64,000 nt of DNA from Vulcanimicrobiota bacterium. GTDB lineage: Bacteria > Vulcanimicrobiota > Vulcanimicrobiia > Vulcanimicrobiales > Vulcanimicrobiaceae. Under the pieces are notes generated by a model. That model saw only the letters and a program-made list of their open reading frames with translations, did not search any database and was not told the origin of the DNA. Location: positions 448,001-512,000 of the forward strand of contig CAWGBN010000006.1 in assembly GCA_963820825.1 (NCBI GenBank), written 5' to 3'. The translations under genes were made by a program, and so were the position numbers. Shown piece by piece: positions 25,100-47,938 of the stretch. Every line of letters starts with the position of its first letter. Position 1 is the first letter of the stretch.

Positions 25100-25272
25100 C
25101 TTCATCACAGCCATCTTATCGAGATCCGCGGCAAGAGCTATCGCCTTCACGAATCGAGCGTTGCGGCACGCCAACGCAAGGTTCGGGAACCCGCCTAGCC
25201 AAGAAGGAATGCCATATAACTCCTTCTGAGCTAGACGACGGCTTTTGGCCGCATTTCAAGTGGCCACCGAGG
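25100..25272 (+). mobile_element. IS21-family remnant (istB 3' end plus probable right end)
   Basis: LHHSHLIEIRGKSYRL is the IstB C-terminal motif; TGGCCGCATTTCAAGTGGCCACCGAGG resembles an IS21 terminus. Confidence 0.65.
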
Positions 25273-26671: not shown

Positions 26672-26841
26672 CGCACTTCAGCTCAGAGGAAACGCCTGGC
26701 TGAGATACGCCGGAAGAGCACCTACGGGTGATCGGCGAGGGAAAACAAAACCTGCGGTGCTCTTTCCTAAAAATGACGTTTTCCAGTGTGTACACGGAAA
26801 TAGGCAACATTTAGAAATTAACTCGTAAGGAAGGAAGTGAA

Positions 26842-27654: not shown

Positions 27655-27806
27655 CGGGTGAACCCCTTCCGACGAAGGGAAGACCCCGACGAAAGGTAAC
27701 GGTGATCATGAGTTTATGAAGGAGCGCTGATTCCGCTTATTTAAGGTTTGCTCCGCCTTGGATGCCGCGTAGCATTGCGAAAAAGTGGACTTAGCTGGCG
27801 CTTGTA

Positions 27807-30491
27807 TTGGTGAGTGCAATAGTGGAACACGGTTCAGATATGCGCGCTCCTGCGACGGTCAAAGTGTCATCGTCTAGCGACGCGACGAGCCTTGGAGTAG
27901 GTAGTCGGCCCAAAGTTCCTTTGCTGAATTCGCGGGCCGCGCTGACCGCTGTTCAGGATATTCTGCTTCAGGAAGCAGCAAGTGGAGCGACTATTTTGGT
28001 CGGCGCTGAACGTGGCCTGGGGAAAACTCATTTTCTCGACCAGGTCAAGCGTTTTGCAAGTGCTCAGGATGCAGTTGTCGATTATCAAAGCGGATCAGAC
28101 CTACTGGCAGACCGAGGTAACTGGTCTGGGCCAGTCGGTATTGGCACGCGGCGCTGGGGCGTCTCCATAATCGACGACCTACATGCAGTGAAGGCAAGCG
28201 TGCTGCGGGGCTTTGTACAACTGTGTGAAGTGTCGACGAAGCGTCCAGTTCTTTTGTTAGCCTCGTATATTGACGATTACTCCGTGCTCAGCGAAAACGT
28301 CAGTGATGCCATTTCCCGTGCGATCCACTTGGGTGCGTCTTGCCTATACCTGGCACCTCTCGACGATCGCGATATGCTGTTACTTTTTGAATCGCTCGAG
28401 AATAGCTATCACCTGAGTGTCGACAACGAAGTCAAACAAGACATCATTGAGATGGCTAACGGGAACCCAGGCTTACTCAAAGAACTCTTGCGAGACCTCC
28501 GCTCGGGAGTGTTAGATAAGCACTTGGTCCCGACTAGCGTTTACGTTCGCAACGCGCGAGTGCAAGCGCAGATGTCCCCCGACCTCTATGCAATCCTTCA
28601 AACTGCCGCTGTAATCGGAAGTCGTTTTTACTTTGCTCAGCTTTTGGAATTGATCGATGCTTCAGCGACAAAGATAGCCCTGGCGCTACAACTTGCACGT
28701 AATTTGAACGTTATTGCCGAGGACAGAGAAGACTCTAACTGCTTCTTATTCGTGCAACCAGCGATGCGCAAGGCTATCTATCATACGATGATAGCTGTAC
28801 GCCGACGGTACCTTCATGCTCTAGTCGCGGACCAGCTACGGAATGACGATGGCGCGTCGGCGAGCTGGAGTGAGAAAGAGCGCGAGCTAGGACTGCACCT
28901 GATCTCCGCGGGCAGGTCGGAGGCAGCTCTCCCTCATCTGCTGAGGGCGGCCGACTCCGCGTTCGGCGATGGAGACCGTGAGTCTGCTCTCCGTCTTTAC
29001 AAGTATATTCTCCTATCAGTCGGCGAGACTTCTGAGATTTGGCGACATGTTCACGACCGCATCGCCTCGTGTTATCATTTGATGAACGATTCAAGAAAGG
29101 CAATTGCGCATCTACTAGCACTGGGAGACTTCTTCCGTCGAAACGAGGATCTTCGGGGACGCCTCTCGATTCTAGCGAGGCTTATTCGCATATACGACAA
29201 CCATAGCGAGGCGGCGCTTGCCAAGCAGACATTCGAGGAGTTCAAGAGTGTCGCTGCATTAGGGGGCTGTGCTGAGCATGTCGCCGATGGATACTTATTA
29301 TGGACATGGCATCTTTGGTATTCCGGGAAACGAACGGAAGCAACAGCAAATATTAAAGAACTTGTGGCGCGGTGTAAAGACTCATTGAAATCATATGTCC
29401 CTTTAATGCTTGCACAAGGAATCATCTTTGCTAAGGATCGATCGCCGGAAATGACCTTTGGGCTAGTTGAAGAAGCCGCTCACGTAGCTGCCAAGACCAA
29501 CGTTGCCATGTACGGGTACTATCTTCATGCTAGTGAGATGGCATGGGAACTGGGCTACCTGCAACAGGCAATCAATTATAACGAGCGCGCGCGGCTCGAC
29601 ATGTCTCCGTTGAGCCAGCATAACCAAATGCGGAACCAGATGGCGGCGATCATTAGCATGAAGATCGCGCTAGATTTGGGCCGTTTACAATCATTCCGTG
29701 AACACGCGGAATGGCTTCAGCAACATGGGGTATTCAAGGTGCCCACGGCAGCGCTGTCGACGCTTATAGGCGTTCGAATCGGGGACCCGTTGCTGGTGGA
29801 TGATTGGTTTCGCGGCGATTTGTTAGCAGACGAGGTTAGTTCGGGAAATTTCCAGTGGACGAGCTTGCTTATTGCCGGGTTCGCCGAAACGATGGTCTTG
29901 CGTGGATATACAAAGCAACTACGACTTTCTCTTCATCGCATCGTTAGAAGCACGGCACCTGACCCTCGATATTGGATACCGCTCGCGATTGCCCAGCATG
30001 GTTTTCGTGGCGATGTTGCAGCAGCAAGGGAGCGCATCGTGCGCGAAACCCGTGGTCAGAACGCGGCGATTGCAAAGGCGTCTCTAGCTCTGTTTGAAGG
30101 TATTCTTGCCTCGCGGTTTGGCGACAAGCACCAGGCCAAGGTCGACGGGAAGCGGGCTGCTGCCCTCTTCGGGGAACTCGGGTGGCCATTAATGGTTGCG
30201 AAGTCACTAGAAATAGCAGGATGCCTTGAGGCGGCACGCGAGGGATATCGCACCTGTCAAGCTTGGGGTGATGTTTCACGGCTTTCCCTACGGAGTGTCA
30301 AGCGCCGTAGTTCAGACTTAACGCCACGCGAAGCCGAAGTCAAGTTGCTCCTTGAACGAGGCATGAGCAATCTAGAGATCGCCAGTTCCTTGTCCATCAG
30401 CGGGCGGACCGCTGCGCATCACGTCGAGGCGGTCTTGGGTAAACTGGGGTTACGTTCTCGCTGGCAGCTCGTTCAACAGCGTAACTGTTAG
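27807..30491 (+). CDS. Large ATP-binding LuxR-family (LAL/MalT-like) regulator
   Basis: GAERGLGKT P-loop, IIDDLH, ANGNPG, TPR-like helical middle, C-terminal LTPREAEV..GMSNLEIA..LSISGRT..HV..VLGKLGL; start uncertain. Confidence 0.85.
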   Translation: MVSAIVEHGSDMRAPATVKVSSSSDATSLGVGSRPKVPLLNSRAALTAVQDILLQEAASGATILVGAERGLGKTHFLDQVKRFASAQDAVVDYQSGSDLLADRGNWSGPVGIGTRRWGVSIIDDLHAVKASVLRGFVQLCEVSTKRPVLLLASYIDDYSVLSENVSDAISRAIHLGASCLYLAPLDDRDMLLLFESLENSYHLSVDNEVKQDIIEMANGNPGLLKELLRDLRSGVLDKHLVPTSVYVRNARVQAQMSPDLYAILQTAAVIGSRFYFAQLLELIDASATKIALALQLARNLNVIAEDREDSNCFLFVQPAMRKAIYHTMIAVRRRYLHALVADQLRNDDGASASWSEKERELGLHLISAGRSEAALPHLLRAADSAFGDGDRESALRLYKYILLSVGETSEIWRHVHDRIASCYHLMNDSRKAIAHLLALGDFFRRNEDLRGRLSILARLIRIYDNHSEAALAKQTFEEFKSVAALGGCAEHVADGYLLWTWHLWYSGKRTEATANIKELVARCKDSLKSYVPLMLAQGIIFAKDRSPEMTFGLVEEAAHVAAKTNVAMYGYYLHASEMAWELGYLQQAINYNERARLDMSPLSQHNQMRNQMAAIISMKIALDLGRLQSFREHAEWLQQHGVFKVPTAALSTLIGVRIGDPLLVDDWFRGDLLADEVSSGNFQWTSLLIAGFAETMVLRGYTKQLRLSLHRIVRSTAPDPRYWIPLAIAQHGFRGDVAAARERIVRETRGQNAAIAKASLALFEGILASRFGDKHQAKVDGKRAAALFGELGWPLMVAKSLEIAGCLEAAREGYRTCQAWGDVSRLSLRSVKRRSSDLTPREAEVKLLLERGMSNLEIASSLSISGRTAAHHVEAVLGKLGLRSRWQLVQQRNC

Positions 30492-31047
30492 GTGGGGCAT
30501 GACAGCCAGGCAAGAGCGTGCGGATCATTCTATTCTAGCCAAGGCTTATCCGACTTTTCCGACGTCTTGCGGGCGCAACATCGGTCACCGTTTAGGTGCT
30601 CGATGGAGTCTCTCCTTAGGGTACGCCGATGCACTACGTGCGCGACAGCGCACGCTTCGTGCGGGCGCCGCGCGGTCTCCGCGAACTCGATCGCCGGTGG
30701 ACGGCGGCCGAGCGCGACCTGTGGTCGGAGCTCGGGCGTGCCCAAACGGAGCGCGAAAGTTCCTTCGAGTGCGCGATTCGCAGCATCCCAATACCGTTTG
30801 GCGTGAGCGTCAAAATCTGCCATCGCCTGCTGGGCCATTCATACCGATAGTGTTTGGCAGCGCTCCCGGTGCTGACAAGTACGACGAGGAAACAGTATCC
30901 ATTTATAATCGCGAGTTTGCCGCTGGAGCCAAAGAGTTCCGGGAAAACTTTACGGACGGATACTTCGACCCAAAGCTCGATGAAATCATCGGCAATGGTA
31001 GCGCCGGGAATGTGTTGGGATAGGTCCCAAATCGGGAGCCAGGGATA

Positions 31048-31195
31048 ACTGTGGATTTCCGCCCAAACGGGCAAGAGAGGAGATCCACGCATGCGCAAGA
31101 GCCGGTTCACCGAGGCTCAGATCGTCGCGATCGTCCGAGAGTACGATGCCGGCACGCCGGTCGCGGAGTTGGCGCGCAAACCCTCGAGGGGCTGA
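31048..31195 (+). mobile_element. IS3-family remnant (left end and truncated orfA)
   Basis: MRKSRFTEAQIVAIVREYDAGTPVAELARK from ATG 31091, then breaks off. Confidence 0.7.
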
Positions 31196-31269
31196 CGTGA
31201 GGTGGCGTTTGGCACAACTCATAACTGTGAGGGTGGAATGATTGAAAAGGTTCGGGCGAACTCCTTCGG

Positions 31270-31370
31270 GGTTCGATAGCCGAGCGAAGAATGCGGGCGG
31301 ATCGCGGGGACAGTGGGCCGATGCCTCCGCTCCACCCTTCGCTAAGCAACTTTGTGCGTAGTGACGTGCA
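31270..31370 (-). pseudogene. Fragment of an integrase related to the element 1 integrase
   Basis: SLRTKLLSEGWSGGIGPLSPRSAR versus QLRTDLVSKGWSGGAGPLSPRSVR in the intact integrase. Confidence 0.75.
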
Positions 31371-31542
31371 GCCCATGTGGCCTGTGGCCACCTCAGACCG
31401 TTGCACTCAACGCGGCGGCCGGATAGGGGCCTCGTTTTGAACGGCCTTAGCTCCGCGCAGCCAGGGGGCCGCCGGGCCTCTTCTACGGATCATAGCCCCT
31501 GCAGCTGGGGGTGCAGGATCGGCGTAGCGGTCTGAGGTTCTA

Positions 31543-32139
31543 TTGATTTTGCTCTGGCAAACGTGCTATATGCGGAGCATTGTGAATCGAGATGTTATCG
31601 ACGATGCGAAAGCGCGCGAAATGAAGCTGCTTAAGGGCTCATGGCTTTCATTGCTTATACTTCTGCTTGGCTTAGCCGGAGCGGTGTTGCTGCAGATCCC
31701 CATCGGCTGGCGTGTAGCGATCGGCGTCGTCGCGGTGGTGGCCGCATACATCGCTCGAAACCAGATTGGGGCGCGCGTTTCTGCGATCGAGGCTGGTAGA
31801 TATGCGCCTTTGCGCCCTGGCGCTGCGGATCGAATAGCCGCCGGCATCAGCGCTGAGACCCCTCAGACGCTCACAATAAACGCGGAATCGGGCAGCGACA
31901 TCGACGACGTGGTCGCGGTGCTGAAAACGGCCCTTGAATCGAAAAAATGGGTCATTACAAAGATTGACCACGGCGCGTTGTGGGATGGGGGGAAAGGCAT
32001 CCAAGTCTATTACGCAGAGAGAGCTGCCGCCGCCGGCAAGGCCTTGATCGCAGCAATCAAGGCCGAAAATCTGCCGGTTAGCGGGGCTGGCGATACCACC
32101 GACGGACTGCCTATGCGAATCGCCGTTCGGCACCCGTGA
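31543..32139 (+). CDS. Hypothetical membrane protein (two N-terminal TM helices)
   Basis: Hydrophobic segments WLSLLILLLGLAGAVLL and VAIGVVAVVAAYIA; start uncertain. Confidence 0.55.
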   Translation: MILLWQTCYMRSIVNRDVIDDAKAREMKLLKGSWLSLLILLLGLAGAVLLQIPIGWRVAIGVVAVVAAYIARNQIGARVSAIEAGRYAPLRPGAADRIAAGISAETPQTLTINAESGSDIDDVVAVLKTALESKKWVITKIDHGALWDGGKGIQVYYAERAAAAGKALIAAIKAENLPVSGAGDTTDGLPMRIAVRHP

Positions 32140-32352
32140 TCGACTCGTCTAAGGACCGTAGTTAATTGCGTAGGTGCCTCAGCACGGATCAGAAACTCTA
32201 GAGTCGAGTCCCCAGTGCGCGCCCCTATAGCGACTTCTGTGATACGAAAGCGCCCAGACCGGACCGACACTCGGGACCTCGCAGCTCGGCACCGGCGGAG
32301 GGGTTCAGCTTTGCGCAGGTGCCCGTGCTTAAACCTTCGAGGGCAAGCGCGG

Positions 32353-32374
32353 CGGTTGCAAAATGGTTGCAATC
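32353..32374 (+). promoter_or_regulatory. Putative integrase arm-type sites (CGGTTGCAAAA TGGTTGCAATC), element 1 right end
   Basis: Same GGTTGCA motif and 11-bp period as 19269-19290, ~105 bp inside attR. Confidence 0.6.
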
Positions 32375-32479
32375 GGAGGCGCCTTCCCGTGCCTCTCCAT
32401 ACCCGAAGGTCGAGCAATTGTCTCGTAGTTCCCGCCTTCCGTGACTTACGCTGCCTCTCTAAAACCGTCGCTAGGCTTC

Positions 32480-32503
32480 TTCGATTCCTACACGCTCCCG
32501 CCA
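32480..32503 (+). repeat. attR of element 1 (tRNA-Sec 3' end including T-loop)
   Basis: Identical to 19200-19223. Confidence 0.92.
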
Positions 32504-32727
32504 CCTCCAAATTCTCGCGTATTTGCAAGGATTGTTGCGATGATGGGTGCGCTTCGCTACACCGTTTGCTTCGGTTTTCTTCGAAAAATCCGATTGGCAT
32601 TTGCACACTCCCTCCAACTCCGGGTCGCGGTTGGGCTGCTTTCTCATCGGACACCTTCCTTTTGCGTATTAGGGTGTCCAGCTCCCGACGGGGTCACTTC
32701 GCGGTCCGCGGCGCGGCAGGACCGAGG

Positions 32728-32760
32728 AAAAAGGGGGCCGTGCACAACGCACGGCCCCTT
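32728..32760 (-). terminator. Intrinsic terminator of the element 2 propeller gene
   Basis: GGGGCCGTGC-GTTGT-GCACGGCCCC followed by a T run on the minus strand. Confidence 0.7.
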
Positions 32761-32801
32761 AATTGAATGGTCTGCAGATGCGTGAGTTTAGCGTTTGCGC
32801 C

Positions 32802-33902
32802 CTACGGAACGAGCACTGGGGTAACGGCCACGCTGCTGTATGAGTTGCTGGGTACCCCTATGATGCTCTTTTTCGGTGCACCACCTGCCGGATAGGCATA
32901 CTCACTTGCTGTCTCGCTGCCCGACGTGGCCTGGTAGAGCAACCAAAGGCCGCGGCCTGAGGCCTGGAAGGTAAAGGCTCCGCCATAATGCGAGACGAGC
33001 GAAGTAGTCGAGATTGGACTGCCGAGTGAGCCTCCCTTCGGCGGATTGTAGGTATCGATCACCGCGGTAGGATTTGACCCATCTAGAATAGCGATCCGAC
33101 CAGCCCCGTCAACTTCAATGCCACCGGCGTATTGGATCGTATTGTTGATTGTGAGCGTCCTGACTCTCTTCGCATTGCAGCCGCCGTCAATTTTGCCGAA
33201 TGTCGTTTTGCCCGAGAGGGAACTGTAGACGTAAAGATTTCCCTTGCCGTCGAATCCGCCAACAGCCACGCCATTTGGAAAAGCCTTCGTGCCTTGGGCA
33301 ACTACTGTAGCGCATGGCGTTGTCGAACCGGCGGCGTAGAACATGACACCCTCGCCGCACTGGCTGCCGGACAGAATAGTACAGGTATCTACGGCAACGG
33401 TGCCTTGCCGCGAAACGGCGATGTTGCCGGGGTATCGGCCTGGCTGAAACGTCAACTTTGGCCCGTTTGTGTAAGGGGGCGCGTAGACCGTCACGTTATC
33501 GGCGAAATAATCTACAACATAGAGGTCGCCCGCCGTATCAGTCGCGAGCTCACCTGCAGATTGAAAACCACTCACTTGACCGACCATCTTGTTCTTGCCG
33601 CCTTGCAGAAAGATGTCGACGTTTGCTCCATCGTCTGCCAGGAAGACGAGCGGCTTGCCGACGGCTCCGGGCTCCATGAAGCTCGGCGTTGTCACGCCGT
33701 GACGGGGAACGATGCCTCCGTGCATCGCCAGGAAACTGTTGAGCCGGCCATTTTGAAAGGCTGGTCTTTGGGTGGACGGGCTCCAGGCGGCTGATTGCGC
33801 AAGAGGCGTTGGGGCCATTTGGGAACTGCCTCCGCAACCGGCCAGCGCTGTCAGTGCAATGGACGTGAGGAACGCGTAATCCGCTACTTTATAAATTCGC
33901 AT
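32802..33902 (-). CDS. Secreted beta-propeller lipoprotein (paralog of 40334-41443)
   Basis: LAGC lipobox; GKPLVFLAD, NKMVGQ, VYAPPYT, EYAYPAGG, ends AVTPVLVP; RBS GAGG before ATG 33902. Confidence 0.82.
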   Translation of the reverse strand: MRIYKVADYAFLTSIALTALAGCGGSSQMAPTPLAQSAAWSPSTQRPAFQNGRLNSFLAMHGGIVPRHGVTTPSFMEPGAVGKPLVFLADDGANVDIFLQGGKNKMVGQVSGFQSAGELATDTAGDLYVVDYFADNVTVYAPPYTNGPKLTFQPGRYPGNIAVSRQGTVAVDTCTILSGSQCGEGVMFYAAGSTTPCATVVAQGTKAFPNGVAVGGFDGKGNLYVYSSLSGKTTFGKIDGGCNAKRVRTLTINNTIQYAGGIEVDGAGRIAILDGSNPTAVIDTYNPPKGGSLGSPISTTSLVSHYGGAFTFQASGRGLWLLYQATSGSETASEYAYPAGGAPKKSIIGVPSNSYSSVAVTPVLVP

Positions 33903-34029
33903 GATGAGGTCTCCTCTGAAGTCGAGCAAGGGCGTAGACTCTTGATCCCATCCTGCTCCCGCGGAGGGAAGAGGTCCAGGGACACTCGTACAGATTATTC
34001 GGACAGTTCGACCGCCGATTGGAGGGTGG

Positions 34030-36570
34030 ATGGAGGCTGCCGGTCGACCTCGCTTCGGAGCGCTGCTGCGGCAGTTTCGTCTCGATGCGGGGATGACGCA
34101 GCAAGAACTCGCCGAGCGGGCGAATTTGAGCGCAGATGCGGTCAGCACGCTTGAGCGAGGGGCTCGAACGCGGCCCTATCGCGAGACGATCGTTCTGCTG
34201 GGGCGGGCCCTGGATTTGTCGCCGGAGCGTGAGGCGCTCCTGGCGAGCGCCGTTGGCATCGCCCATCCACCGCGCCGGCGCAGGGAGGCGCTCGAACCCA
34301 TCGCTATTGCGGATCGTTCGCCCCGAGCCGCAAGCGACGCCGGAGCCACAATCTCCCACAGCAGCTGACTTCCTTCGTTGGGCGGGACCACGAGGTCGCC
34401 GAGATTGCAGCGCTCCTGCGCGAGCACCGACTCGTCACCGTAGTCGGAGCCGGTGGAGTCGGTAAGACGCGCGTCGCCGTGCAAACTGGCAGCGACCTAG
34501 TCGACGGCAGTCCGGACGGCGTGTGGATTGTCGACCTTGCCCCGCTTGCGGATCAAACACTTTTGGCGAGCGCGGTTTTAGCGGTCCTGCAGCATTCCGC
34601 AACAACTGGATCTGCCCTAGACGTTGTCGTCGCGTACCTCAAGACGCGCCGCCTCCTACTTATTTTAGACAACTGCGAGCACCTGGTCGTTGCGGCTCGC
34701 GAGATGGCGACTACTATCATCGGGTTGTGCCCAAACGTGCGCATCCTAGCGACGAGCCGCGAGGCGTTGGACGCGCCCGGTGAGCGCGTCTATCGGTTGC
34801 CGTCCCTGGCGGTTCCACCCGATTCGCGTGCGAGTGCACAAGACGCACTGCGCTATGCAGCGGTGGCCCTCTTCGTTGACCGGGCGCATGCCGTCAACTC
34901 CAGCTTTGCGCTCGTCGACGACAACGCGCCGGATGTCAGCGAGATCTGCCGGCACCTAGACGGCATTCCGCTGGCCATCGAGTTGGCCGCCGCTCGCGTG
35001 AAGGTGCTCGCACCGCGTCAGATCGAGCGGCGGCTCGACCAACGCTTCCGATTGCTTACCGGCGGAGACTCGCGTGCCTTGCCGAGGCATCAGACGATGA
35101 CGGCTCTTATCGACTGGAGCTACGACCTCCTGACGGCGCGCGAGCAGAGGTTCTTTGAGTGGCTCTCGGTTTTCGCGGGTGACAGTACGCTGGAGGCGGT
35201 CGACGGCCGTCTGTGCGGCCGATGACGAAGACGATGTCGCGGTGATAGACCTCATCGCGTCGCTCGTGACGAAGTCGTTGCTGGTTGCCGAGTTGGCCGG
35301 CAATGAGCAGCGCTATTGGCTCTTAGAATCATCGCGGCAGTACGCGCGAGACAAGCTGATCGCGCGCGGCGAGCAGGATGATTTCGCACGACGTCATGCG
35401 ATCTTCTATGTGGAACTGGCAGAGCGACGGGAACGCGAGTGGGACACGATTCCCGATCATGCGTGGCTTCCGCAGGCGACAGTCGAATTGGAGAACTGGC
35501 GGGCAGCGCTGGAGTGGGCACTCGCAAGGAGAGGCGACGTAACTTTGGGACAGCGTATGGCTGCCGTACGCGCCGTTATGTGGCGCAGCTTTACGCTGGC
35601 CGAAGGGCGGCGCTGGGTGCGAGCCGCGATGGAACTGGTCCTAGAAGACACGCCGTTCCTTCTTACCGCGCAACTGGAACATAGTGAAGCTGAAGGCGCC
35701 CGTCGATTCGGCGACTTTCAGATGGCATTCACCAAGGCTGAGAGCGCATTGTCGCGATTTTGCAAGCTTGGTGACGCGAGGGGAATCGCTGAGACTCAAA
35801 GTCTAGCCGGCGCGATGCTCTCCGTTCTGGGAAGGCCAGGGGAGGCAGAGCCTCTGCTCCGTGAAGCTTTAGAGGCCGCGGATACAATCGGTGACTGCCG
35901 CTTGAGGGCTAGCACCCTGTTCCGATTGGGACTCGTACGAAACGAAGTTGCTGACTACGCCGGCGCAGAAGTCTATTTCACCGAAGCACTTGAACTTGCA
36001 AAAGCGCTCGGCGCCACGATCATAAGCATCTCGGTGCGCATCGCGCTGGCTCAAAACGAGCACTTTACGGGAAACGCCGAAAAGGCGCTGCAGCTCATTG
36101 AGGATGTGCTGGCAGACTATCGCTCGCTGAACGCCTCAGGAGCGGCGATCAGTGCAGCCTATGCTCTGACGGACAGGGCTACATATCTCATCGCGCTGGG
36201 TCGATACGACGAGGCACGAGTACAAGCCAATAACGCACTGACGGTTGGCCGCGAGGGTCAGCTCGTTTTCGTAATCGCCAGATCGCTGCAGCAGCTTGCA
36301 GTGCTGGCGTTGCTCGGAGCTCAGGTCGAACATGTACCCGCGGCAGCGAGACACGCGGGAGCCGCTCGGCTCTTCGGCTTCGTCCAAGGTCGCCTTACTA
36401 CATTGGGATCACTGGAGGATCTGGAGCGAGACTACTACATAAGCGCCCTCGCGCTGCTACGCGACACCGTTGGTGCCGAAAAACTTACTAAGATGATGGC
36501 CACGGGCGCGACGATGACCGAAGATGAGGCGGTCGCGCAAGCGCACGCGCTCGAAGCAACTTCAGCTTAG
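34030..36570 (+). pseudogene. XRE-HTH + NB-ARC-like NTPase + TPR regulator, frameshifted
   Basis: FGALLRQFRLDAGMTQQELAERA, GAGGVGKTR, LILDNCEH, LDGIPLAIELAAAR and TPRs spread over several frames (breaks near 34300-34370 and ~35200); colinear with intact paralog 37324-39858. Confidence 0.8.
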
Positions 36571-36699
36571 TTCATTGGTCTTCGCTGCTTCTATCGTCGG
36601 TACGCGGGAGCAGCCGGAAGCAAGAACGGCGAAAAGCTCTTTACTTTGCTTGCGTTTTCACCGATTCGACCAGTCTTAGTCTAACAACGGTGTAGCAGT

Positions 36700-36917
36700 G
36701 TATCGGAAGACCACGAGCTCGTAGCTAGTGCAAACGACTTGTTCCTAAAGGCGGAGCGTCTCACTACACCGTTTACTACACAGAATCGGCCAAAAGCGGC
36801 CTGCATTCTATTGGCTTTACCAGCCCTATGCTCGAAATTGCCGGTACAATCAAGGACTTTCGAGGCTCAGAGGGTAGTGGCGGGGACGTTAGGAGAACGT
36901 CCTACACGCTCCCGCCA
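36700..36917 (+). repeat. Conserved cassette right end, copy A (arm motifs 36763-36785; 40-bp core 36878-36917)
   Basis: Aligns with 41690-41910 and 49815-50007; core TGGCGGGGACGTTAGG-AGAACGT-CCTACACGCTCCCGCCA. Confidence 0.88.
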
Positions 36918-37323
36918 GGTCAAAACACTCCCTCCACTTAGCGATTTTCGCCTTATTCTACGCGGGTTTGCGGCGGGCGATGCTTTTCACTACACCGTTT
37001 GCTACACAGATATGGGATCGGTAGGCGCTCGCGCTAGAAGGCATTGCGGAAGACCCCAGCGTCCGATTGTAGCGGCTCAGTGACGGCGAACCCGATTGGC
37101 GTTAAGAAATACGACTTACGGGGGAGCGGCGCGCCGCGCGTTGACAATCGATTGATTTAACGTTCTGCGATTGATCGCATAGCTCCGCACCGGCGCAAAC
37201 AGCGATGTCGCGCCGATCCTGCGTACCGGCGGCTCCAATACGGAACTAGAGCCTTACCGCGGCATCGCCGTTTTTTAGCTGCGGCGCAGCGCGATGTGAT
37301 TGCGAAATTCGTATAGTGTGCTG

Positions 37324-39858
37324 TCATTCAAGCGCGCGCGCTTGGTCGATCGCCTCATCTTCGGACATCGTCGCGCCAGCCGCCATTAAACGCGCGAGCT
37401 CATCATCACTGATCGCTTCTCGAAGCGTGGCCAGCGCGCGATCGCGCTCCTGTGGTATGAAGAACACCTCCGGGATTTCCAATTCAGTAAAGCGAGCGGC
37501 GACGAAACCTAAGAGCCGCGCGGCGCCGGAAAAGCGCTCAGAGGAGACCTGCCCCTCGGTCGGTGGCGAAAACACCGTGACCAAGGCAAGATGCAGTAAC
37601 GAGCCGGCGACCAGCACGCCGATCCGGAGGTCACGTGCAAGTTCGAGCGCTTCGTGTGCACGCGCCCGCGCCTCATCATATCGGCCCAGCACAATAAGGT
37701 ACTGCGAAATGCTGGCGATCATATTCGGGATCTTGGGTGCCGCTGACCAGTGCAGCGACCGAAGAGCTGTGACCGCGTCAGTCATGAGCCGTAGCGCTGC
37801 TTCATAGCTGCCGGCGTCGGCCTCGTTGTCCGCAAGAGATGCCGCAATCGAAGCTGCAAGAATCTCGGCACCCACCATCTTGGCTAGGCCGAGCGCTTCG
37901 GTATAGTATGCTCGCGCCCCGGTGATATCACGACGGCGGAGTGTTGCCAAAAGCCCCATTCTCCGCAAAACGAGAGCGGCCAGCCGCCGATCGCCCAAGG
38001 TGCGGGCTGTCGCGAGAGCTTCGTGCAGCAGCGGCTCGGCTTCCGCAAACCTTTCCAGAATAACAAGCGACGAAGATGCCAAGCCCTGCACCTGAGCGAT
38101 ACCTCGGACGTCATCGACTTCGCGATACCGCACAAGAGCTCGCTCGGCCGCCGCCAACGCGGCGCGGGCATTAGAAGACTCCGAGGCAACTTCAGCATAA
38201 GCATGGTATAGGCGCGCCATGAGACGAAGCGGAGTCCCTTCATCGGCCGATGCGAGTGCCACTTCCACCCAACGTCTCGCCTCGGGTAGCGAGAGGCTGT
38301 ACAATAGTACCATCCGCAAAGTTGCGAGGCGTTGTCCAAGGACGACGTCGCCCCGTTTACTGAGCGCCCAGGCAAGCACAGCACGCCAGTTATCTGATTC
38401 TGCTTGGACCATCGGGAGCCACTCCCGGTCGGGTGTCGCGTTCCACGCGAGTTCGAGCCGTTCGGCTAGTTCGAGGTACGTGAGCGCATGACGCGATGTT
38501 ATTCGCTCCTGCTCGCCGCACGCAATCAGCTTGTCCCGGGCGTACTGCCGCGATGATTCTAGGAGTCTGTAGCGCTGTTCGTCACTAGCCAACTCGGCAA
38601 CTAGCAATGACTTCGTCACGAGCGATGTAATGAGGTCTATCACCGCAATATCGTCTTCGTCATCGGCCGCGCAGACTGCCGTTATCGCCTCCAGCGAACA
38701 GTCGCCCGCGAAGACCGAGAGCGTTTCAAAGAACTTCTGCTCGCGCGCCGTCAAGAGGTCGTAGCTCCAGTCAATAAGGGCGGTCATCGTCTGGTGGCGC
38801 GGCAAGGCACGCGAATCTCCGCCGGTGAGTAAGTGGAAGCGCTGGTCGAGCCGCCGCGCGATCTGACGCGGTGCGAGCACCTTTACGCGAGCGGCGGCCA
38901 ACTCAATGGCGAGCGGAATGCCGTCTAGGCGGCGGCAGATCTCGTTAACGTCCGGCGCGTTGTCGTCGACGAGCGCAAAGCTGCGATTGACGGCATGCGC
39001 ACGTTCAACGAACAGAGTCACCGCTCCGTAGCGCAGTGCGTCTTGTGCAGTCCCAGGCGAATCGGGTGGAACCGCCATGGACGGCAACCGATAGACGCGC
39101 TCACCTGGCTCGTCCAACGCCTCCCGGCTCGTCGTTAGGATGCGCACGTGTGGGCAAAACTCGATGATAGTAGTCGCCACCTCGCGAGCGGCACTGATCA
39201 CATGCTCGCAGTTATCTAAAATGAGTAAGAGGCGTCGCGTCTTGAGGTACGCGACGACAACGTCTAAGGCAGACCCAGTCGTTGCGGGATGCTGCAGGGC
39301 TGCTAAGACTGCGCTCGCCACAAGTGTTTGATCCGCCATTGGAGCCAGGTCGACTAGCCAGACACCGTCCAAAAAACCGTCCAGTAGGGCGCTCCCTATC
39401 TGCAGCGCAACACGACTTTTGCCGATTCCGCCGGCGCCGAAAATCGTTACGAGTCGGTGATCGCGCAAAAGCGCTGCGATCGCCGCGACCTCGCGCTCTC
39501 GCCCAACGAACGAGCTCAAGTGAGCAGAGAGATTGTGCTTTGCCGTCGCTTGCGCGTCGGCACGCACGATCCGTACCAGCGATGCCTTCAACGCCTCGCT
39601 GCTCCCCCGACGGCGCGGCGGATGTGGGATGCCGGCGGCGCTTTCCAGCAGCGCCGTGCGCTCGGGCGGCAACTTAAGCGCGCGGCTGAGCAAAATCACG
39701 GTCTCCCGATGAGGCCGCGTTCGAGCGCCACGCTCGAGCGTGCTGATTGCCTCCATGCTCAGCCTTGCTCGCTCGGCGAGTTCTTGCTGTGTGATGCCGG
39801 CCTCGAGGCGAAACTGCCTCAGCAGTGCCCCGAAGTCAGCTGGGCTGGAAGCCTCCAT
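37324..39858 (-). CDS. XRE-HTH + NB-ARC-like NTPase + TPR transcriptional regulator
   Basis: FGALLRQFRLEAGITQQELAERA, SFVGRERE, GAGGIGKS, LILDNCEH, LDGIPLAIELAAAR, DWSYDLL, TPR helices. Confidence 0.9.
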   Translation of the reverse strand: MEASSPADFGALLRQFRLEAGITQQELAERARLSMEAISTLERGARTRPHRETVILLSRALKLPPERTALLESAAGIPHPPRRRGSSEALKASLVRIVRADAQATAKHNLSAHLSSFVGREREVAAIAALLRDHRLVTIFGAGGIGKSRVALQIGSALLDGFLDGVWLVDLAPMADQTLVASAVLAALQHPATTGSALDVVVAYLKTRRLLLILDNCEHVISAAREVATTIIEFCPHVRILTTSREALDEPGERVYRLPSMAVPPDSPGTAQDALRYGAVTLFVERAHAVNRSFALVDDNAPDVNEICRRLDGIPLAIELAAARVKVLAPRQIARRLDQRFHLLTGGDSRALPRHQTMTALIDWSYDLLTAREQKFFETLSVFAGDCSLEAITAVCAADDEDDIAVIDLITSLVTKSLLVAELASDEQRYRLLESSRQYARDKLIACGEQERITSRHALTYLELAERLELAWNATPDREWLPMVQAESDNWRAVLAWALSKRGDVVLGQRLATLRMVLLYSLSLPEARRWVEVALASADEGTPLRLMARLYHAYAEVASESSNARAALAAAERALVRYREVDDVRGIAQVQGLASSSLVILERFAEAEPLLHEALATARTLGDRRLAALVLRRMGLLATLRRRDITGARAYYTEALGLAKMVGAEILAASIAASLADNEADAGSYEAALRLMTDAVTALRSLHWSAAPKIPNMIASISQYLIVLGRYDEARARAHEALELARDLRIGVLVAGSLLHLALVTVFSPPTEGQVSSERFSGAARLLGFVAARFTELEIPEVFFIPQERDRALATLREAISDDELARLMAAGATMSEDEAIDQARALE

Positions 39859-40055
39859 CCCCCTCCATCGGGTAGCGCCGAATTGTACGAATAACTTGTA
39901 CGAACGTACCTGGACCTCTTCGCCCCAAGGGGAGAAAATGATTGCGCGGGTCTGCCGCCCCACGATGTCGCCGGTCCCGCCGCCCGAGAAGCGCGCGATT
40001 CTCAAGCCTAGCGCGAACCTTGAGCGCGTTACGACTTCACTAAGGAGAGCTCAAC

Positions 40056-40210
40056 ATGAGTATTTCTAACGCGGTGCGCCATGCGTTGAACACATAATCC
40101 CTTCGACGCTGAGCTTAGCCCGCTCGCCGAGCTGCTCTTGCGTCATCCCTGCGTCGGCAAAACTGTCTGAGCAGAGCGCCGAAGTGGAGTCGACTGACCG
40201 TTTCCGTCCC
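40056..40210. pseudogene. Back-to-back remnants: truncated propeller start (+, 40056-40097) and frameshifted XRE-HTH start (-, ~40100-40210)
   Basis: MSISNAVRHAL with GGAGAG RBS resembles MCTSKAASHAL at 40334; minus strand HFGALLRQF / DAGMTQEQLGERAKLSVE resembles the regulator N-terminus. Confidence 0.7.
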
Positions 40211-40333
40211 GCTCCCGGTTGTCGTCCAAACTGTGCAGGTAAAATGTACGGGTGTGCCTGGACCGATTCCCTCTACCGGCGCAGGATGGATCTGACAAGA
40301 ACCCTCTTCCTCTACTCTTACGGGAGAGTCAAC

Positions 40334-41443
40334 ATGTGTACTTCTAAAGCGGCGAGTCACGCGCTCATCGCATCAATTGCACTAGCAGCACCGGCCGGTT
40401 GCAGCGGAGGTTCCGCAATGGCCCCCACGCCTCTTGCGCAATCGAGCGCCGGGAGCCCGTCCCTCCAAGGGCCACCTTTTACAAATGGAAGGCTCAACAG
40501 TTTCAGGACGATGCGCGGAGGCATCGTTCCCGGTCATGGCACGACAAGGCCGAGCTTCTTTAGTCCCGACGCTAAAGGGAAGCCGCTCATCTTCATCGCG
40601 GATTTGCAGAACAACGTCGTGAACATCTATCTGCAGGCCCGCAAGAATAAGATGGTCGGCCAAATTACGGGTCTCAAGGCGCCAGTGGCCCTCACGACCG
40701 ACGCCTCAAGGAATCTATACGTTGGGGAGGAGACCGGAGATGTACTCGTGTACGCGCCTCCGTACACGGCGTCACCAAAGCTGGTACTCGACGACAGCAA
40801 CGATGATCCTTACGCCATTTCCGTTTCACGTCAGGGAATCGTGGCCGTAGCCAACGTCTGCTCATTAACGCCGAGCGGGCAGTGTAATATCAATAGCGGA
40901 AGTGTCATCTTCTACGCCAAGAATGCCACCAAGGCTTGCGCCACTGTTGCCGATCCGACGACCTTAGGATACTACAACGGTGACGCCTTTGCCGACAATG
41001 GAAGGCTTTACATCACGGGATACCTCCCGGCGGGCTCGGATAGCTATTATGCCATAGGCGAAATTAAGGGCGGTTGCCAAGCGAAGCGGATCACGCTGCT
41101 CGCGAAGAGCGGGAGGGTTGCTTACGGCACCATCAAGATAAACAAGGCGGGCCAAATCGCCGTGATTTATGAAGGCACTAGCCCGGAGGTTTTGTACACC
41201 TATGATCCTCCCAAACACGGCTCCCTCGGAAACCCCGTCTCGAGCACCCCTTTGGTCGGTACGACGGCGGCGAGCTTCACATTTCTTGCGTCAGGATCCG
41301 ACGTTTATACGGCCGACTATTCCAACAGCGGCATCGGATCGAGTAGCGAGTATGACTATCCAATCGGTGGGATGGCGGAAAAGACTATCGCCGTTGGCGG
41401 ACTCCCAGTTGATGTGGCGGTCACGCCGGCGCTCGTTCCGTAG
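40334..41443 (+). CDS. Secreted beta-propeller lipoprotein (paralog of 32802-33902)
   Basis: AGC lipobox; GKPLIFIAD, NKMVGQ, VYAPPYT, EYDYPIGG, ends AVTPALVP. Confidence 0.82.
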   Translation: MCTSKAASHALIASIALAAPAGCSGGSAMAPTPLAQSSAGSPSLQGPPFTNGRLNSFRTMRGGIVPGHGTTRPSFFSPDAKGKPLIFIADLQNNVVNIYLQARKNKMVGQITGLKAPVALTTDASRNLYVGEETGDVLVYAPPYTASPKLVLDDSNDDPYAISVSRQGIVAVANVCSLTPSGQCNINSGSVIFYAKNATKACATVADPTTLGYYNGDAFADNGRLYITGYLPAGSDSYYAIGEIKGGCQAKRITLLAKSGRVAYGTIKINKAGQIAVIYEGTSPEVLYTYDPPKHGSLGNPVSSTPLVGTTAASFTFLASGSDVYTADYSNSGIGSSSEYDYPIGGMAEKTIAVGGLPVDVAVTPALVP

Positions 41444-41486
41444 GGCGCAAACGCTAAAACGCACGCATCTTCGGACTGCTTCGATT

Positions 41487-41520
41487 GAGGGGCGTGCGTT
41501 GTGCACGGCCCTCTTTTTCC
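41487..41520 (+). terminator. Intrinsic terminator of the element 3 propeller gene
   Basis: GAGGGGCGTGC-GTTGT-GCACGGCCCTC-TTTTT, homologous to 32728-32760. Confidence 0.7.
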
Positions 41521-41689
41521 GATCGCCACGCTCCGCCCGGGCGTTTGAAGCGCGAATCTATCCAAGGTAGTTTCTGGCAGTCTCTGTCGGATTAGGCCAG
41601 CGGCTTGGCCTCCTTGCTCACGGCAATTGCGAAACTGTTTTTAGCAGCACTTTCGCAGATTCGACCGATTTTGGCCTAACGACCGTATA

Positions 41690-41910
41690 GTGGATCAAAA
41701 TGCCCGCGAGCTCTACGCTAGGGGAAACGATTTGCTCCTAACGGGAGGCGGCTTACTACACCGTTTACTACACAGAATTGGCCAAAACCGGGCTGCGATT
41801 TCTAAGGCTTTCGTAGCCCCATGCGCAAAATTGCCAGTACCAGCAAGGATATTCGAAGCTTATAAGGTAGTGGCGGGGACGTTAGGAGAACGTCCTACAC
41901 GCTCCCGCCA
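41690..41910 (+). repeat. Conserved cassette right end, copy B (arm motifs 41755-41777; core 41871-41910)
   Basis: Core identical to copy A. Confidence 0.88.
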
Positions 41911-42112
41911 GCTTCTCTTTCGCTATTTACACGGTCGATGGCGTCGTCGTACTAAAGCAAGGTGGTCACGATCTTTCCGTAGTTCATGAGGCCTCCCGAT
42001 GCGGTCCGACGATGCCGCGGGCAATCAAGTACATGCGAGTATTGACAACGATAAAGCGCCAGATTTGGTACGGCCAAAAGCGCTCCATAAAGTGGGACTG
42101 CATGAGTCTCTC

Positions 42113-43543
42113 CTATTCCGGGATCAGCTGCCAGCCCGGCCGGGCTTGCAGCTTCCACATAAACGCATCGTGCAGCAATCGCTTAGTCCAGGCGCCCGCC
42201 AACCCGACGTCGAGTTCGCTCAAGCCAAGGTCGCGCCCGTACTCGGGATAGCGCTCGTAGTCGCGCGCAACCGGCACCATGATGATCGAGGCCGCCGAAC
42301 CAGTGAGCAGCGACTGTCCCATCGACGCAATGCAGGCGGCCGGCATCGCGGACAGCGGCTCGCGATGGCTCGGCTCGCCGCCGCGCGCCTGGTCGAGCAC
42401 GTTGAGCGCGACCGTGCGCCCGATGATGCCGGAGGCCATGCCGGTGCGCGGTGCCGTCGCGGTGATCGGCGAGCCGCTCGAGCCCTTGACCGATCTCGAA
42501 AGAGGATGCGGCGGTGCGAACGCGATGCCGGCGGCGTAGATGCGATCGTCATATGGGGATCGATAGATTGCAGGCCAATCGCGCCCGCGGTACTCGGGAT
42601 ACGTCTTCGCGGTATAGTCGGCATCCACGGTCATCAGGCCGTTGCCCTGCGTCATCTTGGGCGTCACGTCTTCACCCCCGACGCCGACGTACCTCAGCGG
42701 GATGCCGCGGAACTGCGGAATAAGCATTGCGAAATCGAACTCCAGCCACGCTGGTTCTTCGGTAGGCGTTTCGTAGAGTAGGCGGCCGGATTCGACATGC
42801 TTGACGCTCGCGGGAAGTATGGTGCGGATCTTCTCTTCGAAAAAGAGACCGCCGATGACGTCCGCGCCGCGAATGACGCGGTCGCCTTTGCGCGCTTCGA
42901 TTCCGTCGACGCCGAAATCGCCCGGCTGGGATTCGTTCGAGAGCCAGATCAAGTCGGCACGTTCGCGCAAGCCGCGCCGGCGCAAGTCGTGATTCACGTT
43001 CATGATGTATTCGAATGCGGCTCCCTCGCAGGTTGCGAGGGGGTGGCCCGTGCCAACGACGATCCGGGCACGCTCGCCCTTTTCGAGCTTTTTTACGATG
43101 TCGCGATATGCTTCGCCCGTGCGGGTCGCGTGCTCGACCGAACAGACGCTTTCCGAGTTCCCGGCCGAAGGTCCGAGTCCCGGGGTTCCCTCGAAGTTCA
43201 AGTACGGGCCGGTCGCGTTGATCAAAAAATCGTAGTCGAGGGTAGAGTGCTCTCCCGAGTCGAGTGCTACGGCGACGCGCCGCTGCGCGAGGTCGACCTC
43301 TTGTGCACGGCCCGCGACGTACTTGATCCCCAGTTTTGCGTATACCTCATCGAGCGCGAAGTAACATCGATCCGGCGACATCGTCCCGACGCCGACCCAG
43401 ATCAGGCTCGGGAACCAGGTGAACCGGTTTCGCGGCGAGACGACGGTGACGTCGACCTCGTCGAGGTGTTTGGAGAGATGCAACGCCGCGGTGTGCCCGG
43501 CAAAGCCGGCGCCTAATACGAGCACGCGTGATTTCATAATCAT
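42113..43543 (-). CDS. sqr: Sulfide:quinone oxidoreductase-like FAD-dependent oxidoreductase
   Basis: VLGAGFAG, WFPSLIWVGVG, YDFLINATG, TCEGAAFEY, FAMLIPQFRG, PRTGM, AACIASMG (two active-site-type Cys). Confidence 0.8.
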   Translation of the reverse strand: MIMKSRVLVLGAGFAGHTAALHLSKHLDEVDVTVVSPRNRFTWFPSLIWVGVGTMSPDRCYFALDEVYAKLGIKYVAGRAQEVDLAQRRVAVALDSGEHSTLDYDFLINATGPYLNFEGTPGLGPSAGNSESVCSVEHATRTGEAYRDIVKKLEKGERARIVVGTGHPLATCEGAAFEYIMNVNHDLRRRGLRERADLIWLSNESQPGDFGVDGIEARKGDRVIRGADVIGGLFFEEKIRTILPASVKHVESGRLLYETPTEEPAWLEFDFAMLIPQFRGIPLRYVGVGGEDVTPKMTQGNGLMTVDADYTAKTYPEYRGRDWPAIYRSPYDDRIYAAGIAFAPPHPLSRSVKGSSGSPITATAPRTGMASGIIGRTVALNVLDQARGGEPSHREPLSAMPAACIASMGQSLLTGSAASIIMVPVARDYERYPEYGRDLGLSELDVGLAGAWTKRLLHDAFMWKLQARPGWQLIPE

Positions 43544-47800: not shown

Positions 47801-47937
47801 ATTTGCGGATTTTCTTCACGTGGCGTCGCGAGGATCGCGAGCAGTCCCAGCGCGACGATTGCTATGACGAGCGTTGGTGTCAGTTTCGAGGTGAGAAAAT
47901 AACGGGCGATTCGCGCCGCCCAGTTTAGGTGTTCCAT
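44838..47937 (-). pseudogene. RND efflux permease (AcrB/CusA family), frameshifted near 47700
   Basis: TPREENPQI N-terminus in ORF 47386-47937; LGLLVDDAIVMVENIHRH, GIVVRNSIILIEF and RTRPIFMT in ORF 44838-47762. Confidence 0.82.
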
Positions 47938-47938
47938 T

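What the first reader, a model, noticed from the sequence alone, without database searches (positions are those of the whole stretch)
36878..36917. 40-bp quasi-palindromic core mimicking the tRNA end but with a different 7-bp centre
Seen: TGGCGGGGACGTTAGG-AGAACGT-CCTACACGCTCCCGCCA (also at 41871 and 49968). The left arm is an imperfect inverted copy of the tRNA 3' end (reverse complement TGGCGGGAGCGTGTAGG). TAGG/CCTA flank a 7-mer placed exactly like the T-loop, but it is AGAACGT rather than TTCGATT, whereas element 1 attR keeps TTCGATT. Known: lambda-type Int needs identical 7-bp overlaps, Tn916/CTnDOT-type enzymes tolerate mismatches, and integron attC sites act as folded single strands. Inference: either mismatch-tolerant exchange at the T-loop, crossover further 3', or a hairpin substrate. 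Identical centres would let cassettes recombine with each other.
Basis: partly seen in the sequence, partly recalled or inferred. Interest (0 to 1): 0.8.

Follow-up and report, generated by a model that had tools for sequence, protein, structure and literature searches.

The report
Attachment site of tRNA-SeC gene cassettes
The 40-base near-palindrome is the conserved end piece of small foreign-gene cassettes stacked behind a selenocysteine tRNA gene; it is most likely the docking site of an integrase that most of these cassettes no longer carry, so it is a familiar kind of site in an unusual form.

Summary
The 40-mer stands at 36878, 41871 (identical) and 49968 (2 changes), and a fourth copy lies on another contig of the same genome.

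It is an attachment-site junction. Its right 18 bases equal the 3' end of the tRNA-SeC gene at 19130-19223. Its left 22 bases end a conserved, non-coding element arm of about 165 bp.

Four segments sit in tandem behind the tRNA. Only the first (E1) has an integrase, and that one is of another type.

I found 71 copies in the window, contig C4 and the fetched relatives' loci. The arm and core occur in 47 of 90 searched genomes of the same genus. They close cassettes of 1.2-14 kb with very varied cargo; 38 of 44 complete cassettes have no integrase.

The cognate enzyme is an ordinary tyrosine integrase. It lies next to tRNA-SeC in a few relatives, whose elements end in this same core.

The 7-mer always stays with the element arm (0 of 70 hybrids). 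Exchange therefore lies 3' of it, inside the 18-bp identity, at the known T-stem/acceptor subsite.

The left arm is strongly conserved (94% pairwise identity) but shows no covariation. I read it as a double-stranded protein-binding site, not a folded substrate.

Closest known kind: decayed, cis-mobilizable tRNA islands.

The parts
19130..19223 (+). tRNA-SeC gene, the integration target. Its last 18 bases (19206-19223) are the identity block.
   Evidence: ARAGORN; sequence
19224..32503 (+). Segment E1: an island with its own tyrosine integrase (19302-20438, minus strand), a resolvase and a primase-helicase. Its distal junction at 32480-32503 keeps the T-loop 7-mer (24-bp identity). It belongs to a different att type.
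   Evidence: Pfam; repeat family D5; tblastn
32504..36917 (+). Segment E2: an integrase-less cassette. Left arm motif at 32557-32570. Cargo: a 448-aa homologue of PQQ-like beta-propeller proteins (no Pfam hit of its own) and an HTH-STAND-TPR gene that appears split.
36756..36877 (+). Conserved non-coding element arm (P arm) of E2. It carries the direct-repeat motif CTACAC-N6-CTACACAG at 36764-36783, which I read as integrase arm-type sites.
   Evidence: Repeat families D1-D3; 60-copy alignment; no codon periodicity
36878..36917 (+). The 40-bp quasi-palindromic core: 22 element-specific bases (outer arm 36878-36884, inner arm 36890-36894, centre) plus the 18-bp tRNA identity (36900-36917).
36918..41910 (+). 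Segment E3: an integrase-less cassette. The left arm holds a second degenerate copy of the tRNA's last 12 bases (36925-36936) and the arm motif (36990-37009). Cargo: HTH-STAND-TPR (37324-40005, minus) and a 419-aa homologue of PQQ-like propeller proteins (40184-41443, plus). P arm at 41748-41870, core at 41871-41910.
41911..50007 (+). Segment E4: an integrase-less cassette carrying an FAD oxidoreductase, an RND efflux set (OEP, AcrB-type, HlyD-type) and a CsoR-type repressor. P arm at 49845-49967, core at 49968-50007 (2 changes in the left arm).
50008..50045 (+). Start of the flank that follows tRNA-SeC or the last junction in many relatives. It marks the end of the array.

Best explanation
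The 40-mer is the core of an attachment-site junction of one family of integrative elements that target the 3' end of the tRNA-SeC gene. Its right 18 bases are the identity block that restores the tRNA on integration. Its left 22 bases are the inner end of the element's P arm. In a tandem array every junction has the make-up of an attP site: the P arm of one cassette, the identity block, then the P' arm of the next. I infer that a classical tyrosine integrase binds the repeat motifs in both arms and the core on double-stranded DNA. I also infer that it exchanges strands inside the 18-bp identity, most likely in its first bases, at the T-stem/acceptor-stem junction. The 7-mer and the inverted left arm are then an element-specific binding surface (for the integrase core domain or an accessory protein), not the overlap region. 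E2, E3 and E4 have lost the integrase. They can move only if a related integrase-bearing element lands beside them (cis-mobilisation), or by homologous recombination between the conserved arms. Shown: that the 40-mer is an att junction, the limits of the exchange interval, the link to the integrase, and the absence of integrases from the cassettes. Inferred: the exact cleavage points, the role of the left arm, and present-day mobility.
For: The tRNA end recurs four times in direct orientation behind the gene. With fuzzy matching (up to 7 of 40 changes) there are 71 copies in distinct contexts and 26 distinct sequences. The first 58 came from a pattern scan of species genomes, whose records are almost all titled Eremiobacterota, Cybelea or Vulcanimicrobiota. 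The arm plus core is found in 50 of 353 genomes of the order and 47 of 90 of the genus. The cognate integrase has 387-410 aa with Phage_int_SAM_3 and Phage_integrase domains. It lies directly behind a complete tRNA-SeC in 7 of its 8 close homologues, next to the same P' arm motif found in E2 and E3. In four such genomes the next core downstream lies 6.2, 32.2, 61.7 and 64.5 kb away. Exchange interval: the same cassette follows the tRNA in one genome and a core in another, and the two become identical at the T before CCTAC and stay so into the cassette. Flanks diverge by class right after CCA. None of 70 P-arm junctions has a T-loop-like centre, and none of 31 tRNA-body junctions has the element's centre. 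The Islander paper names the T-stem/acceptor junction as one of three tRNA crossover subsites (PMC4383910, passages read). The left arm and centre have 94% mean pairwise identity, against 68% and 55% for the rest of the P arm, with no codon periodicity. Of 44 complete segments closed by a core, 38 have no tyrosine recombinase, 4 have fragments and 2 have a near full-length gene. The window's only integrase is E1's.
Against: No excised circle or empty site was seen. No sequencing run was listed. All 5 metagenome contigs that hold a close integrase relative together with its att side show the integrated state. No integrase of this type was found in the window's own genome at E <= 1e-40, but that genome is 85% complete. 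The cleavage points are not mapped, so a single-strand exchange exactly at the left border of the identity would give the same junctions. More distant integrase relatives (40-50% identity) use the same 17-bp identity without a significant inverted left arm. Their 5-base inverted matches occur in 32% of random 30-mers of this genome. The palindrome is therefore not a general requirement of this subsite. In the one near-identical cassette pair with different neighbours, identity breaks about 110 bases inside the P arm, not in the core. That points to homologous recombination rather than site-specific exchange in that case. The 44-segment count is biased towards short segments, because only 10 kb on each side of a core was fetched.
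Confidence: 0.7

Rival explanations
1. Folded single-strand substrate. One strand of the 40-mer folds into a hairpin whose stem imitates the double-stranded tRNA end. The integrase exchanges one strand at the left border of the identity, and replication resolves the product, as with integron attC sites or the CTX phage.
For: Both strands fold well (z -4.1 and -4.2). The stem has an outer box, a partly unpaired spacer and an inner box. A single fixed exchange point would also explain why the 7-mer never changes partners. One pair (positions 18 and 22) occurs as G-C, A-T and C-G.
Against: Covariation does not exceed shuffles: score 0.045 against 0.042, reached by 103 of 500 shuffles. Pair 18-22 is unpaired in 8 of 26 distinct sequences and pair 12-29 in 13 of 26. 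The sequence is conserved, not just the structure (94%). The enzyme is a classical integrase whose elements carry repeat motifs in both arms, the make-up of a double-stranded attP. It scores 44.8 bits against a cut-off of 265 for the integron-integrase model. Cassettes hold several genes in both orientations.
Confidence: 0.08
2. Mismatch-tolerant exchange across the 7-mer. TAGG and CCTA are the integrase half-sites in both partners, and the 7-mer is a heterologous overlap, as in the Tn916 or CTnDOT type.
For: The tRNA and the core share the layout TAGG, seven bases, CCTA. The 7-mer is conserved within the family.
Against: Heteroduplex products should leave some junctions with the partner's 7-mer. 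None of 70 element-arm junctions and none of 31 tRNA junctions has one. Only the last of the 7 positions is shared. More distant relatives have the identity starting at CCTAC with no such left half-site.
Confidence: 0.05
3. The left arm is a relic or serves something other than recombination. It could be an old inverted duplication of the tRNA end kept by recent spread and gene conversion, or an insulator hairpin between cassettes. On this view the arrays are reshuffled mainly by homologous recombination between the conserved arms.
For: The palindrome is absent from more distant relatives that use the same site. One near-identical cassette pair breaks inside the P arm. The family is nearly confined to one genus. 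Most genomes with cores lack the cognate integrase: 6 of the 47 same-genus genomes with a core have a close intact one.
Against: The 23 left bases are far more conserved than the rest of the arm (94% against 68% and 55%). A lineage whose integrase is only 66% identical keeps the same architecture and length. The core has no T tract and was not called terminator-like. There is no Rfam match.
Confidence: 0.15

Closest known systems
Genomic islands integrated by tyrosine integrases in tRNA genes, T-stem/acceptor-junction subsite (Islander classification, PMC4383910, passages read)
   Same: Intact tRNA gene plus displaced 3' fragments in direct orientation. The identity block ends at CCA. The integrase gene lies next to the tRNA in complete members. 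Later arrivals push older ones outward, as also described for tycheposon islands (bioRxiv 10.1101/2020.12.28.424599, passages read).
   Different: Most members here have no integrase. The element side of the core is an extended inverted copy of the tRNA end (outer 7 bp plus inner 5-6 bp), and I did not find this described. Islander counts tandem arrays only when each member has its own integrase, so arrays like this one are not scored there.
CIMEs, the cis-mobilizable elements first described with ICESt1/ICESt3 of Streptococcus thermophilus (definition read in PMC5704250)
   Same: They are bounded by att sites of an integrase-bearing relative, lack integration genes, and sit in tandem at the 3' end of a target gene.
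   Different: The host is an uncultivated phylum. Up to five complete core-closed segments were seen in one fetched array. Both arms are well conserved. No conjugative partner was identified, and mobilisation is untested.
Integron gene cassettes and attC sites
   Same: Arrays of integrase-less cassettes, each closed by an imperfect palindrome with outer and inner boxes, beside a fixed primary site.
   Different: The integrase is not of the integron type. The site is conserved in sequence and shows no covariation. Cassettes hold several genes with their own regulators in both orientations. The primary site is a tRNA gene.

Membership tests
tRNA-targeting tyrosine-integrase island | Intact target tRNA gene with displaced 3' fragment(s) in direct orientation | tested here: met
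   tRNA-SeC plus four exact 17-base copies on the same strand.
tRNA-targeting tyrosine-integrase island | The identity block runs to the tRNA 3' end and restores the gene | tested here: met
   18-bp identity that ends at CCA. All 31 tRNA-body junctions keep the tRNA's own T-loop-type centre; none has the element's centre.
tRNA-targeting tyrosine-integrase island | Own integrase gene inside the element | tested here: not met
   E2, E3 and E4 have none. 38 of 44 core-closed segments have none. The feature is met in relatives with the same arms.
tRNA-targeting tyrosine-integrase island | Integrase-dependent excision and integration | not testable with these tools
   No runs were listed and no excised form was found among metagenome contigs.
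CIME (cis-mobilizable element) | Keeps the attL and attR sites of an integrase-bearing relative | tested here: met
   The same P' arm motif lies beside the integrase in relatives, and the same core lies at their far end.
CIME (cis-mobilizable element) | [quoted passage not shown] | tested here: met
   for tyrosine recombinases. Transfer genes were not searched for specifically.
CIME (cis-mobilizable element) | Mobilised in cis after accretion with a functional element | not testable with these tools
   The only hint is the 32-64 kb distance from integrase to the next core in three genomes.
Integron cassette / attC | Integron-type integrase beside the primary site | tested here: not met
   the integron-integrase models score 44.8 bits (cut-off 265) and 28 bits (cut-off 435).
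Integron cassette / attC | Site conserved in folded structure rather than in sequence | tested here: not met
   94% sequence identity. Covariation is no higher than in shuffles.
Integron cassette / attC | Mostly single, promoterless genes in one orientation (feature recalled) | tested here: not met
   Segments are 1.2-14.2 kb, hold several genes on both strands and include regulators.

The most novel reading that the evidence does not exclude
The arrays are a working, tRNA-anchored cassette platform, not a graveyard. Integrase-less cassettes, each with a conserved arm set and the 40-bp palindromic site, would be captured, excised and reshuffled in trans by a dedicated tRNA-SeC integrase that visits the locus. 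The palindrome would let any two junctions serve as equivalent partners, possibly as a folded or cruciform site. That would be an integron-like gene-capture system built on a lambda-type integrase.
Probability: 0.15. Interest if true: 0.75.

Novelty: new variant of a known kind. Interest (0 to 1): 0.38.

Why it matters
The finding defines the attachment site, the arms and the cognate integrase of an element family in Eremiobacterota, a phylum known almost only from metagenomes. I found no paper among those listed by my searches that describes it.

About half of the searched species of one genus carry arrays of integrase-less cassettes behind tRNA-SeC. Their cargo includes defence-type genes (Fic, TIR, AbiEii, HipA-like), regulators, efflux systems and enzymes.

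The arrays give a clean natural data set on how tRNA islands decay into cassettes yet keep their ends. Current island finders skip such arrays because they require an integrase in each member.

The strongly conserved inverted copy of the tRNA end on the element side is a concrete, testable feature of how integrases read the asymmetric 3' subsite of tRNA genes.

Tried and rejected
- **RNA gene.** Rfam gave no match at E <= 1 on 36600-37100.
- **Terminator.** The core was not called terminator-like and has no T tract.
- **Protein-coding arm.** Variability in the P arm shows no codon periodicity.
- **tRNA-like minihelix.** I rejected this because the left arm also pairs with the discriminator base and CCA, which stay unpaired in a tRNA (sequence).
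- **Sequencing runs.** None was listed for 36000-42500, so no reads were laid.
- **Excised forms.** Among 44 metagenome loci with integrase relatives, 9 are close (91-100% identity). The 5 of these that hold the att side all show the integrated state behind the tRNA.
- **Relative G073.** A decayed integrase lies behind tRNA-SeC, but no distal junction was found within 40 kb.
- **Inverted arms in distant relatives.** I first read 5-base inverted matches in more distant integrase relatives as a compact core. A control showed such matches in 32% of random 30-mers, so I dropped the idea.
- **Covariation.** It is not above shuffles.
- **A near-identical cassette pair** was meant to narrow the exchange point. 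Instead, identity breaks about 110 bases inside the P arm.
- **Survey of all tRNA-end copies in the order.** The proportions of junction types therefore rest on the fetched loci only.
- **Earlier notes of this scan.** There were none for this place or sequence.
- **Literature.** Searches on Eremiobacterota, integrase, tRNA and genomic island (none of the 15 papers listed holds the phylum name), on the sublocation paper (none held, id not held), on CIMEs and on tycheposons showed no description of this family.

Full report
**1. The observation**

The 40-mer stands at 36878-36917 and 41871-41910 without change. It stands at 49968-50007 with two changes, both in the left arm. None of 100 shuffles gave a match.

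ARAGORN finds one tRNA in the window, tRNA-SeC at 19130-19223 on the plus strand. Its last 17 bases recur exactly at 32487, 36901, 41894 and 49991.

Identity between the cores and the tRNA is 18 bp. The 7 bases before it read AGAACGT in the cores and TTCGATT in the tRNA and at 32480-32503.

Both DNA strands of the 40-mer fold into a hairpin: -13.1 and -12.9 kcal/mol, z -4.1 and -4.2. The same stretch of the tRNA gene (z -0.6) and the junction at 32464-32503 (z +1.0) do not.

A fourth copy, differing at two positions, lies on contig C4 of the same genome.

**2. Layout of the locus**

The five copies of the tRNA end cut the region into four tandem segments.

- **E1 (19224-32503)** has a tyrosine integrase next to the tRNA, a resolvase and a primase-helicase. 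Its distal junction keeps the T-loop 7-mer, giving a 24-bp identity.
- **E2 (32504-36917), E3 (36918-41910) and E4 (41911-50007)** have no integrase. tblastn with six integrase queries finds only E1's gene in the whole window (Pfam).
- **Cargo.** E2 and E3 carry an HTH-STAND-TPR gene and a homologue of PQQ-like propeller proteins. E4 carries an RND efflux set, a CsoR-type repressor and an FAD oxidoreductase.
- **Arms.** Left of each core lies a conserved stretch of about 165 bp with the direct-repeat motif CTACAC-N6-CTACACAG. A copy of that motif also lies right of the junctions at 32503 and 36917.
- **The arm is non-coding.** Its variability shows no codon periodicity, Rfam has no match, and the core is not terminator-like.

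**3. Relatives**

A pattern scan of one genome per species returned 59 loci, which hold 58 distinct copies. All but two contigs are titled Eremiobacterota, Cybelea or Vulcanimicrobiota; one is titled Bryobacterales and one Acidimicrobiaceae.

Fuzzy matching without fixed positions (up to 7 of 40 changes) over everything fetched gives 71 copies in distinct contexts and 26 distinct sequences. The two commonest forms account for 43 of the 71 and have C where the window has G at position 22. That change lengthens the inner stem to 6 bp. The window's centre occurs in 7 of the 71.

A search by reference finds arm plus core in 50 of 353 genomes of the order, including 47 of 90 of the window's genus. 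That tool scored at most two places per genome.

The copies lie in arrays downstream of tRNA-SeC, in the same orientation.

The sequence after CCA falls into a few recurrent classes:
- three related P' arm classes that share the arm motif;
- arms with other repeat motifs, which I take to be of other integrase types, including the E1 type;
- one class that follows the tRNA or the last junction in many genomes, which I take as the native flank. The window has this class from 50008.

**4. The enzyme**

One P' arm class is followed by an integrase gene or its remnant.

A search of the order with one such protein found close homologues (85-100% identity, open frames of 376-485 aa) in 8 genomes. It found none in the window's own genome at E <= 1e-40; that genome is 85% complete. 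The wider tally of 82 of 353 genomes at that threshold includes two unpublished genomes, G245 and G252.

In 7 of the 8 genomes the gene lies directly behind a complete tRNA-SeC with this P' arm.

The protein has Phage_int_SAM_3 and Phage_integrase domains after about 60 N-terminal residues. It is far below the cut-offs of the Xer and integron-integrase models.

In four genomes the next core downstream of such an integrase lies 6.2, 32.2, 61.7 and 64.5 kb away. The 40-mer is therefore the distal junction of elements of this integrase. Its left part belongs to their attP.

**5. Where exchange occurs**

- The same cassette follows the tRNA in one genome and another cassette's core in a second genome. 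The two alignments become identical at the T before CCTAC and stay so through CCA into the cassette. Left of that point only TAGG is shared.
- Right of CCA the flanks differ by class.
- None of 70 junctions with the element's left arm has a T-loop-like centre. None of 31 junctions with the tRNA body has the element's centre.

Each array junction was formed as an attR, so exchange across or left of the 7-mer should have left hybrids. The exchange therefore lies within the 18-bp identity.

This fits the third crossover subsite named in the Islander paper, the junction between T and acceptor stems (PMC4383910, passages read). The original sublocation paper is not held, and what I say of it beyond that passage is recalled.

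A single-strand exchange exactly at the left border of the identity would give the same junctions. I cannot exclude it.

**6. What the left arm is**

The 23 left bases have 94% mean pairwise identity over 66 copies. Bases -60 to -1 of the arm have 68%, bases -170 to -61 have 55%, and the cargo ends have 15%. The matching limit sets a loose floor on the first figure.

A lineage whose integrase is 66% identical keeps the same length and architecture with six changes. Two of them turn the G-C pair at positions 18 and 22 into A-T.

On the 26 distinct sequences, however, covariation does not exceed shuffles: score 0.045 against 0.042, reached by 103 of 500 shuffles. Pair 18-22 is unpaired in 8 sequences and pair 12-29 in 13.

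The left arm also complements the discriminator base and CCA, which are unpaired in a tRNA. The symmetry is therefore at the DNA level and is not a tRNA mimic.

I read the arm as a sequence-specific double-stranded binding surface. This is an inference.

It is not a general need of this subsite. Integrase relatives at 40-50% identity use the same 17 bases without a significant inverted arm, and their 5-base matches occur in 32% of random 30-mers.

In 24 of 92 distinct right flanks a second copy of the tRNA's last 12 bases (up to 2 changes) starts 6-7 bases after CCA, against 0.4% in random 40-mers. E3 has one at 36925-36936. The acceptor-strand motif is thus multiplied around the core, which fits a protein recognition element.

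**7. The cassettes**

Of 50 complete segments between two att sites, 44 end in a core. Among those 44:
- 2 hold a near full-length integrase;
- 4 hold fragments of 46-122 aa;
- 38 hold none.

Sizes run from 1.2 to 14.2 kb. Only 10 kb on each side of a core was fetched, so long elements are under-sampled.

Cargo is very varied: Fic (SoFic-like), PRiA4_ORF3, beta-lactamase fold, sulfatase, solute-binding protein, TIR, AbiEii, HipA-like, MFS, erythromycin esterase and others. The HTH-STAND-TPR and propeller pair is the most frequent.

The same cassette occurs at different array positions in different genomes: position 3 against position 1 at 80% identity, and another pair at 92%.

One pair of cassettes is more than 99% identical over about 6.3 kb but has different neighbours. 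It loses identity about 110 bases inside the P arm and regains it in the core. In that case the swap looks like homologous recombination between arms.

Of the 47 same-genus genomes with a core, 6 have a close intact integrase.

**8. Comparison with what is known**

The segments meet the definition of CIMEs: elements that lost integration and transfer genes but kept attL and attR (PMC5704250, passages read). Stacking by repeated integration at one tRNA, with decayed remnants, is described for tycheposon islands (bioRxiv 10.1101/2020.12.28.424599, passages read).

Three things differ here: the extended inverted copy of the tRNA end on the element side, the good preservation of both arms, and the abundance of integrase-less members in one genus.

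None of the papers listed by my searches describes this family; supplements were not consulted. Two earlier notes of this scan describe similar integrase-less or hairpin-rich modules behind other tRNAs in other phyla. I did not test them.

**9. Verdict**

The 40-mer is an att junction core, and the exchange lies 3' of the 7-mer. The hairpin and mismatch-tolerant readings are unsupported but not formally excluded. The finding is a new variant of a known kind and of moderate interest.

Noticed in passing
window 32726-36555 and 37327-41520: The cargo of E2 and E3 is homologous but inverted relative to the att arms (arms of up to 852 nt, 75-87% complementary). The STAND gene is intact in E3 (893 aa) and appears split into several frames in E2.
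   Followed up: partly
own genome contig C4:22771-22810 (locus L004): This is a fourth copy of the core. C4 is 99.86% identical over 11.7 kb to locus L034, whose contig begins inside a tRNA-SeC gene. Either the assembly holds a second arrangement of the array or the population is mixed at this locus.
   Followed up: partly
window 36925-36936, and 24 of 92 right flanks in the loci: A second, degenerate copy of the tRNA's last 12 bases starts 6-7 bases after CCA in one class of cassette left ends.
   Followed up: partly
window 50008-50045 and many loci: The flank after the last junction holds a conserved direct repeat (ACTCGGAAC twice). In one relative it is followed by an integrase fragment, so the 'native' flank may itself be an old, fixed element remnant. 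No integrase remnant is present there in the window.
   Followed up: partly
window 18621-18691 and 53479-53549: A 71-nt inverted repeat (89% complementary) brackets the whole tRNA and array region, 34.8 kb apart. The two copies probably lie in paralogous genes.
   Followed up: no
window 41911-42000: The left end of E4 lacks the family's arm motif and contains a GGTCACG-type word that recalls the arm repeats of another integrase class seen in relatives. E4 may be a composite of two element types.
   Followed up: no
window 19224-32503: E1 combines an integrase, a serine resolvase, an HTH protein and a primase-helicase with cargo (P5C reductase, an 894-aa LuxR-type regulator). This is the integration-plus-replication layout described for tycheposons.
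   Followed up: no
loci L058 and L048 (cassettes c23 and c28): Two cassettes more than 99% identical over about 6.3 kb differ by about 30% in the last 110 bases of the P arm and then share the core. The arm is mosaic.
   Followed up: yes
window 55115-55428: Three tandem copies of a unit of about 133 nt (64-81% identity) lie inside an ORF. They are probably protein repeats.
   Followed up: no
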